Below, piece by piece: positions 75 through 21,671 of a DNA stretch of 32,000 nt. Under the pieces are notes generated by a model. The model searched no databases and had not been told where the DNA came from. It worked only from the letters and a program-made list of their open reading frames with translations. The DNA is from Chlamydiota bacterium (GTDB lineage Bacteria > Auribacterota > JACPWU01). Both the position numbers and the translations under genes were made by a program. Position 1 is the first letter of the stretch, and each line of letters opens with the position of its first letter. The stretch covers positions 63,629-95,628 of the forward strand of contig JACPWU010000002.1 in the NCBI GenBank assembly GCA_016196885.1. Direction: 5' to 3'.

Positions 75-179
75 GTTAGTAAGCGCGTAAGTGTCTAAGT
101 GCTTAGGTGCTTAAGTTGAAAAGGAAATAAATTTATTCCTTATTAACTTAAGCACTTAGACACTTATCAACTTAAGCAC
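75..179. repeat. Periodic-arm hairpin H1: long imperfect hairpin whose arms are tandem degenerate 8-nt units
   Basis: Left arm GTTAGTAA GCGCGTAA GTGTCTAA GTGCTTAG GTGCTTAA (75-114). Right arm TTAAGCAC TTAGACAC TTATCAAC TTAAGCAC (148-179) is largely its reverse complement, unit for unit. Small inner hairpin AAGGAAATAAATTTATTCCTT. The TAA at 88-90 could be the stop of a gene cut off by the window edge. Confidence 0.7.
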
Positions 180-193
180 TCACATGTATTCTT

Positions 194-2191
194 ATGAACT
201 ACGCCCGTCTTTTTTTTGAAGTTCCATTAAAGCAAGGTTTTGATTACCTCATTCCTGAACACTTGCGATCCCAGGTGGTGGAAGGTTCTCGCGTCTTGGC
301 CCCTTTCGGTCGCGCGAGGAAGTGGGGTTATGTGAAGGAACTTTTAGTCAAGCCGGATGTATCTGAAGTGAAAGAAATTTTAGAAATTGCAGAAGGCCCT
401 CCCGTTTTTACGCCTGCCCTTTTTCAATTGGCCCAGTGGATGAGCGATTATTACCTTTCTCCTCTGGGCATGGTTTTGAGAACGATGTTGCCCGGTCCAT
501 TTCGAAAATTTCGTTCAGCGACATCGAGAGTGAAGGAGACTCTTTTCGAAGAAGAAAATGAAATGGAGTCCCCTCATCTCTTGAATGAAGAACAGAAAAA
601 GGCCCAAGGGCTTATTTTTAAAAGATTAGATGAAGCCATTTTTTCCGTGGTTCTCATTCATGGTGTGACGGGCAGTGGAAAAACGGAGCTCTATCTTTCG
701 AGTATTGAAAAAGTCTTGGCCCAAGGAAAAGATGTGATTGTGCTGGTGCCTGAAATTTCTTTGACGCCACAAACAGTAGAGCGGGTAAAAAATCGCTTTG
801 GTAAAATTGTGGCCTTGATGCACAGCCGCATGAGCGAGGGGGAGCGCGTTAAGGAATGGGAGAGAATTCAAAGGGGTGAGGCCCGCATTGGGGTAGGGCC
901 TCGTTCTGCGGTGTTTGCGCCTTTTCGGAATTTAGGTCTGATCATTGTGGATGAAGAGCATGAGCGTACCTATAAACAAGAAGAAATGCCGCGTTATCAG
1001 GGTCGGGATGTCGCGATCATGCGGGCCAAGTTCGAAAGGGCCGTGGTGCTTTTGGGATCGGCGACTCCGGCTTTGGAGTCCTATTTTAACGCAGAACAGG
1101 GAAAATACGATCTTGTGACTCTTTTGAAGCGCGTGATGAACCGGCCCATGCCGGAGGTGCGAGTTGTGGACATGCGCAAAGAATCAGAAGCTTATGGACG
1201 ACTTATTTCTTTTTCCAAAACGTTAAGTGATGAGATCAATGAACGGCTGAAGCGTCGGGAGCAAGTGATTCTATTTTTAAATCGTCGCGGCTATGCCCCC
1301 ATGGTTTTATGTCCCAAATGTGGTCATGTCATTATTTGCGTGGAGTGCGATCAGGCAATGACCTATCATCGGAACAGAGAATACATGCTTTGCCATCTAT
1401 GTGAATCTCAAATTCCCATTCCTCAAAAGTGTCCGAAATGCGAGCATCCTAGGCTTCATCGCTTGGGGGTGGGAACGCAGCGCATTGAAACCCATTTGGA
1501 AAAAATTTTGCCTCATGCGACGCTTCGCCGCATGGATACGGACTCGACACGGACTAAAGATGCGCATGAAAAAATTCTACAGTCTTTTCGATCAGGGGAG
1601 GTTCAAATCCTGGTGGGAACCCAGATGATTGCGAAGGGGCTAGATTTCCCAAATGTCACTTTGGTGGGGGTGATGAGTGCAGATGTGGCCATGAGTCTTC
1701 CGGATTTCAGAATGGGCGAGCATACGTTTCAGTTGTTAACCCAGGTGGCAGGCCGCTCAGGAAGGGGAGACAAAAAGGGGGTGGTGTTGATTCAGACGCT
1801 CACGCCCTTTCATCCTGTGATTCGAGCGGCGATGGCGCAAGATTATTTACAATTTTATAAAAGCGAATTGGTTTATCGCAAACAGTTGGTCTATCCTCCT
1901 TTTTCGCGCATTGTCTCCATGGAATTTGAAGGCAAGCCTGAGCCCAAGGTCATTCAGGTGGCGAAAGAAATGAGCGTCTTAGTCAAAAAACATCTTCCCT
2001 CCTCAACTCGCGTTTTCGGTCCTCATCAAGCGCCCATTTCCAAGATCAAAGGAAAATTCCGCTGGCAAATCATTCTTTTTTATCCGCGTGGCCAATCCAT
2101 TCATGAACCTTTGAGACGGGTTCTGGATGATTTTAATCAGGATAGATTAGTGAAGGTGATGATCGACGTGGATCCGGTGAGTTTGATTTAG
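194..2191 (+). CDS. priA: Primosomal protein N' (replication restart helicase PriA)
   Basis: 665-aa ORF with Walker A GVTGSGKT, DEEH box (IIVDEEHE) and the PriA-typical Cys-rich zinc insertion CPKCG..CVEC..CHLC..CPKC, followed by helicase C-terminal motifs (TQMIAKGLDFPNVTLVG, QVAGRSGR). Confidence 0.95.
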   Translation: MNYARLFFEVPLKQGFDYLIPEHLRSQVVEGSRVLAPFGRARKWGYVKELLVKPDVSEVKEILEIAEGPPVFTPALFQLAQWMSDYYLSPLGMVLRTMLPGPFRKFRSATSRVKETLFEEENEMESPHLLNEEQKKAQGLIFKRLDEAIFSVVLIHGVTGSGKTELYLSSIEKVLAQGKDVIVLVPEISLTPQTVERVKNRFGKIVALMHSRMSEGERVKEWERIQRGEARIGVGPRSAVFAPFRNLGLIIVDEEHERTYKQEEMPRYQGRDVAIMRAKFERAVVLLGSATPALESYFNAEQGKYDLVTLLKRVMNRPMPEVRVVDMRKESEAYGRLISFSKTLSDEINERLKRREQVILFLNRRGYAPMVLCPKCGHVIICVECDQAMTYHRNREYMLCHLCESQIPIPQKCPKCEHPRLHRLGVGTQRIETHLEKILPHATLRRMDTDSTRTKDAHEKILQSFRSGEVQILVGTQMIAKGLDFPNVTLVGVMSADVAMSLPDFRMGEHTFQLLTQVAGRSGRGDKKGVVLIQTLTPFHPVIRAAMAQDYLQFYKSELVYRKQLVYPPFSRIVSMEFEGKPEPKVIQVAKEMSVLVKKHLPSSTRVFGPHQAPISKIKGKFRWQIILFYPRGQSIHEPLRRVLDDFNQDRLVKVMIDVDPVSLI

Positions 2192-2192
2192 A

Positions 2193-20001: not shown

Positions 20002-20014
20002 AAAAAGGATCTTT

Positions 20015-21568
20015 ATGAAAACACGTATCTTTATCATATTGATAGTAGTTTTAGGACTCACGTCTTTTCTTTTGATTTATCGCCATTCTGTTTCTGGTAG
20101 GAAGCAGGATTCTTCTGAGAAAGTAGAGAGTGCGACGTATTACTGTCCCATGCATCCGACCTACACGAGTGATCGGCCGGGGAACTGTCCGATTTGCAAC
20201 ATGACATTGGAGAAGAGAGAAGAAGTTCAGCCGTCTCCCTCGCAGTCTTTGAATTCAAAAGATATTTGCTTCATGCACAATTGTCCCATGATGAAAGAGG
20301 GGGAAACATGCCCCATGATGGTGGTGGCGAAAGTTGGGGAGAAGGTTACCTGTCCTGTGTGTGGGTCTCATGTTGCACAGGAATCAAAGCAGGGCCCAGA
20401 AAAGAAAATTCTTTATTGGACGGATCCGATGATGCCGGATTTTCGTTCGGATAAACCCGGCAAGTCGCCTATGGGCATGGACTGGGTCCCTGTTTATGAA
20501 GAAGAGGCAGTTGCTGGAGGGGATCATGCGGCTTCTCCATCAGGATATACCCCCATTCTGGTAAGTCCTCAAAAGATACAGTTGATTGGCGTTAAGACTG
20601 TTCTTGCCAAGAAGCAAAATTTAACAAAGCAAATTCGTACGGTAGGGCGAGTGACAGTGGATGAAACCCGCATCGTTCGTGTTCATCCCAAAGTAGAGGG
20701 TTGGGTTGAGGAGATTTTTGCGAAGTATGAAGGGGATCGGGTGAATAAAGGTCAGCCGCTTTTTTCATTTTACAGCCCTGATTTTGTCTCTGCCCAGGAA
20801 GAATATCTTTCGGCTTTGAAAATGCAAAGTGGGCTTCCCTCGGATGTGTCTAGCGATGCCCGAAGAGATGCCCAGGCCAATGTGGATTCTGCACAGAAGC
20901 GTCTTCAATGGTGGGATGTGACGGATGAACAAATTGAGGAGTTGAGAAAGCGTCAAGCCCCTCAAAAGACGCTTGTTTTGACGTCTCCTATCGATGGAGT
21001 CATTCTCAAGAAAAATGTTTTTGCGGGCCAGTTTATGGAAAGAGGTGCAGGCTTTTTTGAATTGGCGGATCTTTCGAGCGTGTGGGTGGATGCAGATTTA
21101 TATGAGTATGATTTGCCTTGGGTCAAGGTGGGAGAAGAGGGGCGTGTCACATTGCCCAATGATTCCAAGAATGAATGGAGCGGAAAGGTGATTTATGTGG
21201 CCCCTCTCTTAAAGGCGGAAACGCGAACCGCCGTGGCTCGTTTGGAGTTGTCGAATGCGGACAACGTTCTAAAGCCCGAGATGTACGTGACAGTCGAAAT
21301 CTCTATTGATTTGGGAGAGCGGCTTGTTGTACCTGCGGAGGCTCTCTTGGATACGGGAGAGCGTAAAATTGTTTTTGTCAGCAAGGAGAATGGAATTTTT
21401 GAACCTCGAGAGGTGGTGATGGGGGCAAAGACGAATAAATCCGTCGAGATTGAAAAAGGGATTGATGAAGGGGAAGTCGTGGTGATCAATGGAAATTTTC
21501 TCATTGATTCTGAGAGCAGGTTGAAAGCGGCGATGGAGGGGATGGGAAGTGGAGAACATCAACATTGA
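20015..21568 (+). CDS. cusB: RND efflux periplasmic adaptor (CusB-like) with N-terminal heavy-metal-binding domains
   Basis: N-terminal TM. Canonical HMBD YYCPMHPTYTSDRPGNCPICNMTL (20138-20209). Cys/Met-rich CFMHNCPMMKEGETCPMM..CPVCG. Cys-less CusB-type YWTDPMMPDFRSDKPGKSPMGMDWV. Then lipoyl/beta-barrel MFP domains and a MEGMGSGEHQH tail. Confidence 0.9.
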   Translation: MKTRIFIILIVVLGLTSFLLIYRHSVSGRKQDSSEKVESATYYCPMHPTYTSDRPGNCPICNMTLEKREEVQPSPSQSLNSKDICFMHNCPMMKEGETCPMMVVAKVGEKVTCPVCGSHVAQESKQGPEKKILYWTDPMMPDFRSDKPGKSPMGMDWVPVYEEEAVAGGDHAASPSGYTPILVSPQKIQLIGVKTVLAKKQNLTKQIRTVGRVTVDETRIVRVHPKVEGWVEEIFAKYEGDRVNKGQPLFSFYSPDFVSAQEEYLSALKMQSGLPSDVSSDARRDAQANVDSAQKRLQWWDVTDEQIEELRKRQAPQKTLVLTSPIDGVILKKNVFAGQFMERGAGFFELADLSSVWVDADLYEYDLPWVKVGEEGRVTLPNDSKNEWSGKVIYVAPLLKAETRTAVARLELSNADNVLKPEMYVTVEISIDLGERLVVPAEALLDTGERKIVFVSKENGIFEPREVVMGAKTNKSVEIEKGIDEGEVVVINGNFLIDSESRLKAAMEGMGSGEHQH

Positions 21569-21577
21569 CTTCGCGTA

Positions 21578-21671
21578 CTTCGTACATCGTACGTCGTACC
21601 TAGAACATCGAACATCGTTTCTTGCGTAGATTGTTTTACGAAGTCCGATGTCCGAAGTACGAAGTACCAGG
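21578..21671. repeat. Periodic-arm hairpin H7 (7-nt units) between cusB and cusA
   Basis: CTTCGTA CATCGTA CGTCGTA CCTAGAA CATCGAA CATCGTT (21578-21619) versus TACGAAG TCCGATG TCCGAAG TACGAAG TACCAGG (21637-21671). Confidence 0.8.

What the first reader, a model, noticed from the sequence alone, without database searches (positions are those of the whole stretch)
75..21671. Family of stop-codon-abutting hairpins whose arms are tandem 7- or 8-nt repeats: shared architecture, no shared sequence
At seven places the DNA that begins at or overlaps a stop codon folds into a 70-110-nt imperfect hairpin. In each case every arm is itself an array of 4-6 degenerate units of fixed length. Two loci use 8-nt units: 75-179 (GTGCTTAA type / TTAAGCAC type) and, more weakly, 6567-6674. 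Five loci use 7-nt units. 12174-12254 has TTCGTCG type / ACGAACA type. 15009-15125 has AAATTCG AAATACG / CGAATTT CGTTCTT. 18575-18662 has CAGCGTA type / CTGNNCG x5. 19919-20001 has CAGAATT x4 / AATTCTG type x5. 21578-21671 has CNTCGTA type x6 / TNCGAAG type x4-5. The unit sequence differs at every locus, so this is not a REP/MITE family with one consensus. What recurs is the design: a periodic arm, a complementary periodic arm, and placement at a stop codon. Most lack a T-tract, and three lie inside operons (sucC|sucD, cusC|cusB, cusB|cusA), so they are not classical intrinsic terminators. Possible explanations are slippage-generated stem growth, mRNA 3'-end or processing and stabiliser structures, or sites for a protein that reads a periodic duplex.
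Basis: seen in the sequence. Interest (0 to 1): 0.75.

Follow-up and report, generated by a model that had tools for sequence, protein, structure and literature searches.

The report
Heptamer-repeat hairpins filling gene junctions
An uncultured Chlamydiae genome carries, about once every 5 kb, a long hairpin whose arms are 7-base (once 8-base) tandem repeats, wedged between a stop codon and the next gene; the pattern is real, but it is the same kind of poorly understood element already described in cyanobacteria and Geobacter.

Summary
All seven loci fold far better than shuffles (z -3.2 to -9.8). Their arms are periodic at lag 7, and at lag 8 only for 79-183; 6564-6669 is 7-nt, not 8-nt. In 41.8 kb of this genome there are 15 lag-7 arrays against 0.0 in shuffles, and almost no arrays at other lags. 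The window comes from a Chlamydiae MAG (GCA_016178005.1). Sister MAGs carry the same kind of hairpin, including at the sucC|sucD, cusC|cusB and cusB|cusA junctions; two more distant relatives have none. The claim of "no shared sequence" fails outside the window. 18575-18658 is homologous to a hairpin after eno 25 kb upstream, and three sister-MAG hairpins form one family. One of those three differs from the other two by exactly one 7-nt unit. The hairpins are not classical terminators and match no Rfam family. They fill the spacer between the stop codon and the next ribosome-binding site, and some extend the upstream ORF. The same architecture is published for cyanobacterial STRR hairpins and for Geobacter paired hepta- and octanucleotide repeats. 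My best reading is dispersed, slippage-prone palindromic repeats that are tolerated in operon junctions and may affect mRNA. This is a new member of a known but unexplained kind, of moderate interest.

The parts
79..183 (+). H1. Hairpin in the udg|priA junction. Arms are 79-126 and 136-183, built of 8-nt units (GTAAGTGC/CTTAAGTG type against CACTTAAG type). The udg stop TAA (88-90) lies inside the second unit. priA starts at 194.
   Evidence: I2, 48-nt arms, 77% complementary. (-44.6 kcal/mol, z -8.3). (lag 8 = 0.65/0.62, none of 2000 shuffles reach it). (udg ends at the conserved C-terminus). Relatives have 22- and 49-nt spacers here.
6564..6669 (+). H2. Hairpin that starts at the first base after the fmt stop (6561-6563) and ends about 7 nt before the ATG of a degraded rsmB. 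Arms are 6564-6610 and 6623-6669, built of 7-nt units (NNCAAAT type), not 8-nt. The order of unit variants is mirrored between the arms.
   Evidence: I1, 47 nt, 85%. (-47.4, z -7.4). (lag 7 = 0.50/0.55, lag 8 = 0.38/0.31). (register 0 gives 0.85 against 0.53 at +/-7).
12174..12254 (+). H3. Hairpin that starts 1 nt after the stop (12171-12173) of the ABC-ATPase/DtxR-C gene. Units are TTCGTCG on one arm and ACGAACN on the other. The aminotransferase gene starts at 12284.
   Evidence: I18. (period 7 on both arms). (-29.2, z -3.2, the weakest). (lag 7 = 0.70/0.67).
15007..15120 (-). H4. Hairpin in the sucC|sucD junction on the minus strand, starting 4 nt after the sucC stop (15125-15127) and ending 16 nt before the sucD start (14990). 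Only about 3 heptamer units per arm (AAATTCG AAATACG AAACACA against the complement), around a poorly paired centre of about 70 nt.
   Evidence: I9, 23 nt, 87%. (-29.6, z -4.3). (lag 7 = 0.69/0.56; right arm P = 0.11). Most genomes have a 0-30 nt spacer at this junction.
18575..18658 (+). H5. Hairpin with CAGCGTN units against CTGNNCG units. The upstream hypothetical ORF reads 17 nt into the left arm and stops at a TAG (18589-18591) that is the first three bases of the variant unit TAGCGTA. cusC starts at 18671 or 18686. It belongs to a family with the hairpin after eno (L083 2668-2755, about 25 kb upstream).
   Evidence: I4, 37 nt, 84%. (-61, z -9.8). (lag 7 = 0.70/0.73). (homology to L083 2668-2755, score 63 against a null maximum of 24).
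19914..19999 (+). H6. Hairpin in the cusC|cusB junction, with CAGAATT units against AATTCTG units. The whole left arm lies inside cusC and encodes its last 10 residues (QNTEFRIQNK*) after the conserved ...VGK. cusB starts at 20015 and its AAGGA ribosome-binding site is left free.
   Evidence: I5. (-36.6, z -6.7). (lag 7 = 0.82/0.71). (tail comparison with L211, where a different heptamer array starts at the same codon).
21571..21667 (+). H7. Hairpin in the cusB|cusA junction, starting 2-6 nt after the cusB stop (21566-21568). Units are CGTACNT x6 against TNCGAAG x4-5. cusA starts at 21681 in the NCBI call.
   Evidence: I6, I8. (period 7, 6.4 and 4.4 copies). (-35.1, z -3.3). (lag 7 = 0.73/0.74). 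The orthologous junction in L211 holds a CGAAGCT/CCTCGAG heptamer hairpin.
11066..11101 (+). One-armed heptamer array (GGACGAT x4) with no inverted partner. It starts 5 nt after the ftsX stop and contains the ATG of the ABC-ATPase gene (11076). It shows that heptamer expansion also occurs here without a hairpin.
   Evidence: period 7, 3.9 copies, 90%. (no hairpin, -6.4 kcal/mol).
12293..12326 (+). One-armed heptamer array (ATGGCTT x3) just inside the 5' end of the aminotransferase gene.

Best explanation
These are small palindromic repeat elements of the STRR type. Each is a hairpin-forming insert whose two arms are degenerate tandem arrays of a 7-nt (rarely 8-nt) unit. Several sequence families exist in this Chlamydiae lineage, and each family has copies at different gene junctions.

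The arrays change length in 7-nt steps, most likely by replication slippage. The two arms stay matched because they mirror each other, either through arm-to-arm templated correction of a quasi-palindrome or through selection for pairing.

The elements end up tight against stop codons because, in a compact operon junction, the only place that tolerates about 100 extra bases is between the stop codon and the next gene's ribosome-binding site. Where the array overruns the stop, the ORF simply reads into it until a stop occurs.

The hairpins are co-transcribed with their operons and do not terminate transcription. On the mRNA they would form 25-45 bp imperfect stems. The most likely effects are those shown for E. 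coli REPs: a barrier to 3' exonucleases, and slowing of ribosomes that terminate less than 16 nt upstream.

Shown here: the hairpins, the 7-nt periodicity and its genome-level excess, the sequence families, a 7-nt indel between family members, the junction geometry, and the absence of terminator features.

Inferred: slippage as the step mechanism, arm-to-arm correction, the mode of dispersal (unknown), and any effect on mRNA.
For: Structure and periodicity:
- Hairpins and periodicity are far beyond chance.
- The excess is specific to lag 7 (15 arrays against 0.0 in shuffles) and about 25-fold above 80 other genomes.
- One-armed heptamer arrays also occur, so heptamer expansion is a general property of this genome.

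Families and turnover:
- H5 matches H8 (score 63). J3, K4 and K6 match each other (scores 70-106, loop included). J0 matches J1 (57). The null maximum is 24.
- J3 differs from K4 and from K6 by exactly one 7-nt unit.
- Arms mirror each other's unit variants. Register 0 beats +/-7 in the seven hairpins (six window, one sister MAG) whose arms I had aligned at offset 0, strongly so in H2 and H4.
- The trait is lineage-specific. It is present in GCA_016178005, GCA_016178055 and GCA_016196915, and absent from 37 kb of two relatives at a similar protein distance.
- Where those relatives have a hairpin at the same junction, it is short and non-periodic.
- Logan contigs break inside these elements, as expected for multicopy sequence.

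Position and expression:
- The elements fill the spacers, ribosome-binding sites stay free, and tails of CusC (both lineages) and SucC (L211) are read from the arrays.
- There are no terminator features and no Rfam family.

Precedent:
- Cyanobacterial 7-bp STRR hairpins lie between hupS and hupL (PMC2670836).
- Geobacter has multicopy paired tandem 7-, 8- and 9-nt repeats (PMC2700814).
- Heptanucleotide units are the commonest long SSR class in bacteria, with polymerase slippage proposed as the cause (Mrazek 2007, as summarised in PMC4679880).
- REPs less than 16 nt from a stop stall ribosomes (Liang 2015, as summarised in PMC12306157).
Against: - Only about 42 kb of this genome and about 37 kb of the sister MAGs could be read. 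Six of the seven window hairpins still have no second copy, so their family membership is an extrapolation.
- No transposase, target-site duplication or other dispersal signature was found.
- No strain-level length polymorphism was seen. Logan contigs are identical to the window.
- The same three junctions are occupied in two lineages at about 62% protein identity, and the cusC and sucC boundaries coincide to the codon. That fits long-term maintenance by selection at least as well as a neutral or selfish history.
- Nothing explains why the step is 7.
- The 7-nt indel rests on one family.
Confidence: 0.6

Rival explanations
1. The hairpins are selected RNA elements of polycistronic mRNAs, such as intercistronic stabilisers, RNase III or other processing sites, or devices that tune the upstream/downstream expression ratio. 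The periodicity would be only the way such stems are built and repaired in this lineage.
For: - The sucC|sucD, cusC|cusB and cusB|cusA junctions carry a periodic hairpin in both lineages at about 62% protein identity. The boundaries fall at the same codon of cusC and at the conserved end of sucC.
- A more distant relative has short ordinary hairpins at eno|divIC and udg|priA.
- Ribosome-binding sites are left outside the stems.
- Between H6 and K6 the unit differs G-to-A on one arm and C-to-T on the other, in every unit.
- Planctomycetes and Verrucomicrobia also carry periodic hairpins in sucC|sucD.
Against: - There is no strand asymmetry. The sense strand folds better in 5 of 11 hairpins and the antisense strand in 6, and G-U pairs are not enriched on the sense strand.
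- One sister-MAG hairpin lies in a divergent spacer with no upstream stop, and K4 is inverted relative to K6 and J3.
- Some copies are decayed (H8 arms only about 67-69% complementary at any register).
- Orthologous pairs are not demonstrably homologous (scores 16-23, null maximum 24).
- Family B copies are about 85% identical, so they are much younger than the lineage split.
Confidence: 0.2
2. One reading: each hairpin grew on the spot from a local seed, by slippage alone, with no copying between loci. Only the architecture is shared.
For: - Within the window, no two of the seven hairpins share sequence clearly above the null.
- Units differ even between orthologous junctions.
- CAGCGTN-type arrays occur in more than 120 unrelated metagenome contigs with GC 0.40-0.76, so the same heptamer can arise independently.
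Against: H5/H8 and J3/K4/K6 are alignable across arms and loop, with the same order of unit variants. That indicates common descent rather than convergence.
Confidence: 0.1
3. The hairpins are DNA-level sites: paired arrays bound by a nucleoid or architectural protein (IHF/HU-like, as proposed for Geobacter), or sites that extrude as cruciforms. Their function would be in chromosome organisation or replication rather than in RNA.
For: - No RNA-strand bias.
- Both orientations occur relative to transcription.
- The Geobacter authors proposed IHF/HU binding for the same architecture.
- Three 7-bp units equal two turns of B-DNA (established DNA geometry).
Against: - The unit sequence differs completely between families, so a sequence-specific reader is unlikely.
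- No candidate protein was found.
- The proposal for Geobacter is itself untested.
Confidence: 0.07
4. The hairpins are Rho-independent terminators or attenuators of an unusual long-stem type.
For: They follow stop codons. H5 is followed by TTCTTTTTAT six nucleotides after the stem.
Against: - None is called by the terminator scan, and the number of terminator-like sites equals the shuffle expectation.
- Six of seven lack a T-tract.
- Several sit between genes that need co-expression, such as sucC/sucD and cusC/B/A.
Confidence: 0.03

Closest known systems
Cyanobacterial STRR (short tandemly repeated repetitive) sequences, in their hairpin-forming arrangement (for example between hupS and hupL of Anabaena, Nostoc and Lyngbya)
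   Same: - Tandem 7-bp units.
- Inverted arrays able to form a hairpin.
- Location in intergenic spacers, including inside operons.
- The same heptamer recurs at several loci.
- Function unknown, with transcript stability or translational coupling suggested (PMC2670836).
   Different: - The host is an uncultured Chlamydiae lineage.
- The unit sequences are unrelated to the cyanobacterial ones.
- Most arrays here are two-armed (12 of the 15 lag-7 segments lie in hairpin arms).
- One locus uses 8-nt units.
- Several elements overrun the stop codon and add a peptide tail.
Geobacter metallireducens multicopy 'global regulator binding sites' classes 1-3 (Aklujkar et al. 2009, PMC2700814)
   Same: - Multicopy families found by BLAST.
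- Each site is 3-5 tandem repeats of 7 nt (MTYCTGA), 8 nt (GTTGCTYN) or 8/9 nt (TCTCCGTS[Y]).
- Sites occur in pairs on opposite strands.
- Different families have different units.
   Different: - In Geobacter the distance between the paired sites is described as variable, and IS elements insert at a fixed distance from them.
- In Geobacter they were interpreted as IHF/HU sites.
- Here the arms are separated by only 9-70 nt, and the elements sit tight against stop codons.
REP/BIME/REPIN elements of Enterobacteria and Pseudomonas
   Same: - Dispersed imperfect palindromes in intergenic DNA.
- Often 1-20 nt from the 3' end of an ORF.
- Co-transcribed with neighbouring genes.
[quoted passage not shown]
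This is the best available functional analogy.
   Different: - REPs are 20-40 nt with one family consensus and a GTAG or CGTC tag, have no internal tandem periodicity, and are mobilised by RAYT transposases.
- The periodic hairpins here are 80-115 nt with many unit types.
- A separate REPIN-like element does exist in this window (18015-18154), and it is not periodic.
One-armed heptanucleotide SSRs (long SSRs of Mrazek 2007; TAACTGA repeats of Beggiatoaceae, PMC4679880)
   Same: A 7-nt unit is the favoured step. The arrays lie in intergenic DNA close to gene boundaries. Polymerase slippage is proposed as the cause. One-armed arrays are also present here (11066-11101 and 12293-12326).
   Different: Those arrays are single direct repeats. 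Only one inverted TAACTGA set was reported among 170 in the Beggiatoaceae genome studied. Here the inverted pair is the rule.

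Membership tests
Cyanobacterial STRR hairpins | Arrays of tandem heptanucleotide units | tested here: met
   lag 7 in six of seven loci. One locus (79-183) uses 8 nt.
Cyanobacterial STRR hairpins | Inverted arrays that can fold into a hairpin in an intergenic or intra-operon spacer | tested here: met
   Literature description.
Cyanobacterial STRR hairpins | The same heptamer recurs at many loci of the genome | tested here: inconclusive
   Two copies of the CAGCGTN type occur in 42 kb, and three copies of the AAAATCA type in 37 kb of sister MAGs. The other six window hairpins are singletons in the DNA that could be read.
Cyanobacterial STRR hairpins | Cyanobacterial host and the canonical STRR unit sequences | tested here: not met
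   The host is a Chlamydiae MAG. None of the window's consensus units is one of the canonical STRR heptamers as I recall them (CCCCAGT, TTGGTCA, CAACAGT); that list is from memory, not a tool result.
Geobacter paired tandem hepta/octanucleotide sites | Each site is 3-5 tandem repeats of 7-9 nt, paired with a like site on the opposite strand | tested here: met
   Description of the Geobacter sites.
Geobacter paired tandem hepta/octanucleotide sites | Multicopy family detectable by nucleotide BLAST | tested here: inconclusive
   Met for H5/H8, J3/K4/K6 and J0/J1. The whole genome was not available.
Geobacter paired tandem hepta/octanucleotide sites | Same consensus units (GTTGCTYN, TCTCCGTS[Y], MTYCTGA) | tested here: not met
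   By inspection, the consensus units listed do not match those quoted.
REP/BIME/REPIN | Palindrome of 20-40 nt with one family-wide consensus, typically GTAG- or CGTC-tagged | tested here: not met
   The elements are 80-115 nt and share no consensus among the seven. The tag was not examined systematically.
REP/BIME/REPIN | Intergenic location, frequently within about 20 nt of the upstream stop codon | tested here: met
   All seven start between -38 and +6 nt of a stop. The REP distribution is described.
REP/BIME/REPIN | A cognate RAYT (IS200/IS605-like Y1) transposase in the genome | not testable with these tools
   Only about 42 kb of the genome could be fetched. None of the Pfam families listed for genes in L081, L083, L085 or L211 is a transposase family.
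MITE | Terminal inverted repeats plus target-site duplication, and multiple copies | tested here: inconclusive
   The whole element is an inverted repeat. Copies exist for three families. The element boundaries are blurred by the periodicity, and no target-site duplication was evident in the alignments.
Intrinsic (Rho-independent) terminator | Short G+C-rich stem followed directly by a U-tract | tested here: not met
   none of the seven is called, and the count equals the shuffle expectation. Only H5 has a nearby T-run.
Any Rfam RNA family | Covariance-model match at the gathering score | tested here: not met
   no match anywhere in the window.

The most novel reading that the evidence does not exclude
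The heptamer-armed hairpin is the product of one conserved, still unknown process that operates across phyla (Chlamydiae, Planctomycetes, Verrucomicrobia, cyanobacteria, Geobacter). Two forms are possible: a hairpin-templated expansion that adds 7-nt units to both arms and keeps them complementary, or a new class of non-autonomous mobile hairpin that is targeted to the stop-codon side of gene junctions. Under this reading, the codon-exact coincidence of element boundaries at cusC and sucC in two lineages reflects targeting or active maintenance, rather than selection acting on random insertions.
Probability: 0.12. Interest if true: 0.7.

Novelty: new member of a known kind. Interest (0 to 1): 0.4.

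Why it matters
Tandem heptamer repeats have been known in bacteria since 1990, and their preferred 7-nt step has never been explained. This lineage shows the two-armed hairpin form at unusually high density, about one per 5 kb and roughly 50 times the density in other genomes sampled. It has several sequence families side by side, and close sister lineages either have the elements or lack them. That makes it a good natural system for asking three things: how such arrays grow, how the two arms stay matched, and what a 30-45 bp stem placed directly at a stop codon does to an operon's mRNA and to terminating ribosomes.

There is also a practical point for annotation. These elements extend ORFs with repeat-encoded tails, shift apparent start codons, and break short-read assemblies. 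Because the organism is uncultured and the architecture already has published precedents, the immediate impact is moderate.

Tried and rejected
- Palindromic core idea. Several units looked like a 6-nt palindrome plus one base (GAATTC-A, CTTAAG-TG, TTTAAA-G). A test on 25 consensus units found self-complementarity no higher than in shuffled units. Rejected.
- RNA-strand signature. Sense against antisense MFE and G-U counts show no bias (5 against 6).
- Known RNA families and classical terminators. None found.
- Homology of orthologous junction hairpins (H6/K6, H7/K7, H4/K4). Scores of 16-23 are not above the null maximum of 24, so orthology rests on position only.
- Metagenome scan for CAGCGTN x4. 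It returned more than 120 contigs with GC 0.40-0.76, mostly long one-armed arrays; 8 of 68 assessable were two-armed. This shows the heptamer is common in many organisms and is not evidence for one family.
It returned no close relative (best 76%), but the 80 loci served as a background set.
- Exact-sequence look-ups of CusC and SucD failed because my ORF boundaries, or the window itself, differ from the record.
- Strain-level unit-number variation. Logan contigs are 100% identical to the window or to the MAG records, so nothing was seen.
- C-terminal extension of UDG by H1. Not present; only the last 3 codons overlap.
- Vioque 1997 on STRR in RNase P helix P12 is not held in the library, so that precedent rests on memory only.

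Full report
**Source of the window.** The CusB and PriA proteins encoded in the window are 100% identical to proteins of a "MAG: Chlamydiae bacterium". The window corresponds to the last ~32 kb of contig JACOUD010000070.1 of GCA_016178005.1. A further 9.8 kb upstream could be read as L083 (L083 coordinate = window + 9807). Logan contigs assembled from other sequencing runs are 100% identical across 1-3290 and 18577-21989, so the structures are not assembly artefacts. Gene content comes:
- udg, then priA (194-2191)
- a TPR gene on the minus strand
- def, DUF1189 and fmt (to 6563), then a degraded rsmB
- FTR1, two ftsX genes and an ABC ATPase (to 12173), then an aminotransferase
- sucD and sucC on the minus strand, then a PBP5 gene on the minus strand
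- a hypothetical ORF (to 18591), then cusC (to 19951), cusB (20015-21568) and cusA

**The observation.** All seven loci are recovered by the inverted-repeat search. They fold at -29 to -61 kcal/mol, with z-scores of -3.2 to -9.8 against dinucleotide shuffles. TRF reports period-7 arrays on both arms of four loci and period 8 at 146-180. Per-arm autocorrelation peaks at lag 7 in six loci (0.50-0.82) and at lag 8 only in 79-183 (0.62-0.65). It and 15007-15120 are the weakest cases.

At genome scale the signal is striking. In 41.8 kb there are 15 lag-7 arrays and one lag-8 array, with none at any other lag from 4 to 12. Shuffles give 0.0 at lag 7. In 1.34 Mb from 80 diverse genomes, lag-7 arrays are about 25 times rarer, and lags 6, 9 and 12 (coding repeats) dominate instead. 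Two further heptamer hairpins lie upstream of the window:
- H8 (L083 2668-2755), directly after the eno stop and before divIC.
- H9 (L083 ~2305-2377), at the divIC stop between convergent genes.

That makes nine two-armed hairpins in 41.8 kb.

**Position.** On the transcribed strand each window hairpin starts between 38 nt before and 6 nt after the last base of a stop codon. Each ends 6-32 nt before the next start codon and occupies about 70-95% of its spacer. Where a ribosome-binding site is recognisable (GGAGG before cusC, AAGGA before cusB), it lies outside the stem.
- In H1 the stop codon lies within a repeat unit.
- In H5 the ORF stops at a TAG that is the first three bases of the variant unit TAGCGTA.
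- In H6 the entire left arm is coding and gives CusC a 10-residue tail after the conserved ...VGK.

None of the hairpins is called as an intrinsic terminator, and there is no Rfam match.

**Relatives.** PriA and CusB searches gave four related stretches:

| Locus | Assembly | Protein identity | Lag-7 arrays |
|---|---|---|---|
| L085 | GCA_016178055 | PriA 64% | 6 in 15 kb |
| L211 | GCA_016196915 | CusB 62% | 5 in 21 kb |
| L087 | Logan/JGI contig | PriA 60% | none |
| L089 | GCA_041906865 | PriA 63% | none |

L087 and L089 together cover 37 kb. The elements in the two array-bearing relatives are:
- L085: J1 lies in a divergent spacer, J2 abuts the gatB stop, and J3 abuts the accD stop.
- L211: K4 (sucC|sucD), K6 (cusC|cusB) and K7 (cusB|cusA), which are the orthologous junctions to H4, H6 and H7.

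In L211 the cusC array starts at the same codon as in the window (after ...VGR). SucC there carries a 13-residue tail read from the hairpin arm, whereas the window's SucC stops at the conserved ...EIVKRV.

In L089 the udg|priA and eno|divIC junctions hold short, non-periodic hairpins in 49- and 71-nt spacers. In L085 the udg|priA spacer is only 22 nt. The long spacers are therefore created by the elements themselves.

**Shared sequence after all.** In an all-against-all local alignment with a shuffled-sequence null maximum of 24:
- H5 and H8 score 63 and align across both arms.
- J3/K6, K4/K6 and J3/K4 score 106, 83 and 70, and align over about 125 nt including the loop.
- J0 and J1 score 57.

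There are thus several dispersed families, each with its own unit. The window is simply too small to show second copies of most of them. J3 differs from K4 and from K6 by exactly one 7-nt gap, which is direct evidence for unit-number change. Orthologous-junction pairs (H6/K6, H7/K7, H4/K4) are not above the null. However, H6 and K6 have units differing at one position on both arms in every unit (CAGAATT/AATTCTG against CAAAATT/AATTTTG).

Arms mirror each other's unit variants. Register 0 beats shifts of +/-7 in the seven hairpins (six in the window, one in a sister MAG) whose arms I had aligned at offset 0, and most clearly in H2 and H4 (0.85 and 0.87 at register 0 against 0.53 and 0.62 at the best +/-7 shift). 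Five Logan contig ends fall inside these elements or inside another repeat, as expected for multicopy sequence.

**What it is not.**
- Units are not enriched for self-complementarity.
- There is no sense-strand folding or G-U bias, so nothing yet points specifically to selection at the RNA level.
- CAGCGTN arrays occur in more than 120 unrelated metagenome contigs, mostly as one-armed arrays. The same heptamer in different organisms is therefore not evidence of common descent.

**Generality.** Two-armed heptamer or octamer hairpins also appear in the background set: L022 (Planctomycetaceae, in sucC|sucD), L062 (Pirellulales), L007, L034 (Chthoniobacterales, 8-nt, in sucC|sucD) and L039 (an alphaproteobacterium). 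The sucC|sucD spacer is 0-30 nt in 29 of 46 genomes but 65-154 nt in several PVC members.

**Comparison with what is known.**
[quoted passage not shown] Their function is unknown, with transcript stability or translational coupling suggested (PMC2670836).
- *Geobacter metallireducens.* The genome paper lists multicopy families of sites made of tandem 7-, 8- or 8/9-nt repeats that occur in pairs on opposite strands (PMC2700814). This is the same design.
- *Heptanucleotide SSRs.* They are the commonest long SSR class in bacteria, with polymerase slippage proposed as the cause (Mrazek 2007, as summarised in PMC4679880).

The present elements are therefore a new instance, in Chlamydiae, of a known but mechanistically unexplained kind. 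They fail membership of the REP family proper and of the canonical STRR sequence families, but they share the architecture.

**Most likely mechanism (confidence 0.6).** These are dispersed palindromic repeat families whose arms are heptamer arrays. The arrays grow and shrink in 7-nt steps, and the arms are kept matched by arm-to-arm templating or by selection. They persist only where about 100 extra bases are harmless, namely between a stop codon and the next ribosome-binding site, which explains why they abut stop codons. They are co-transcribed and probably act, if at all, like REPs.

The main rival (0.2) is that they are selected intercistronic RNA structures. The occupancy of the same three junctions, with codon-exact boundaries, in two lineages at about 62% protein identity is the best argument for that view. 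The data here cannot separate the two.

Why the step is 7, and how copies reach new junctions, remain open.

Noticed in passing
window 18015-18154 (copies at L083 8648-8773 and L085 13170-13273): A non-periodic, nested palindromic element of about 135 nt is present at least three times across two lineages, at 84-88% identity. Its core is two inverted GTAG-tagged REP-like palindromes (GTAGTCGCCCCATTTATGGGGC, and the reverse complement of GCCCGATAAATCGGGCGACTAC). These sit inside 21-nt outer inverted repeats, which makes the element REPIN-like. This hints that a RAYT-type transposase may exist in the genome.
   Followed up: partly
window ~14163-14165 (L081 4004-4148): The NCBI record of the same contig has 145 extra bases here. 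They contain the true 3' end of sucD (288 aa in the NCBI call), whereas in the window the sucD ORF is 277 aa with a different end. The window is therefore not an exact slice of the deposited contig.
   Followed up: partly
window 11066-11101 and 12293-12326: One-armed heptamer arrays whose unit contains ATG (GGACGAT x4 and ATGGCTT x3) sit at or just inside the starts of the ABC-ATPase and aminotransferase genes. Successive ATGs fall in different reading frames. This resembles the heptamer repeats next to start codons reported in Beggiatoaceae and Nostoc.
   Followed up: no
window ~6677-7216: The rsmB gene expected after fmt is reduced to fragments. NCBI calls three small ORFs here, two of them with PF01189 hits. 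Hairpin H2 ends about 7 nt before the remnant's ATG.
   Followed up: no
window 19921-19951; L211 9851-9893; L211 5299-5340: Repeat arrays are translated as C-terminal tails. CusC ends ...VGK-QNTEFRIQNK* here and ...VGR-DFENSKFKNQNAK* in L211. SucC of L211 has 13 extra residues (NRTFLTSKSKMTN) read from the hairpin arm, while the window's SucC ends at the conserved ...EIVKRV*.
   Followed up: yes
L082, L084, L086 and L212 (Logan contigs): Short-read contigs end inside the repeat elements:
- L082 starts at window 18577 (first unit of H5).
- L212 spans L211 9939-11540, starting in K6 and ending in K7.
- L086 ends at L085 6732, inside J1.
- L084 starts at L083 8724, inside the REPIN-like element.
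This is consistent with multicopy k-mers or with population heterogeneity at these sites.
   Followed up: partly
L022 5476-5566; L007 9865-9990; L034 9920-10000; L062 6778-6882; L039 16823-16890: Hairpins with 7- or 8-nt periodic arms also occur in Planctomycetes, Verrucomicrobia and an alphaproteobacterium. Three of them lie in the sucC|sucD spacer. That spacer is 0-30 nt in most genomes but 65-154 nt in several PVC members.
   Followed up: partly
L083 2166-2300 (window -7641 to -7507): A G+C-rich, strongly folding stretch lies next to hairpin H9 in the 203-nt convergent spacer. The whole 236-nt segment folds at -93.7 kcal/mol. It is not periodic and was not analysed further.
   Followed up: no
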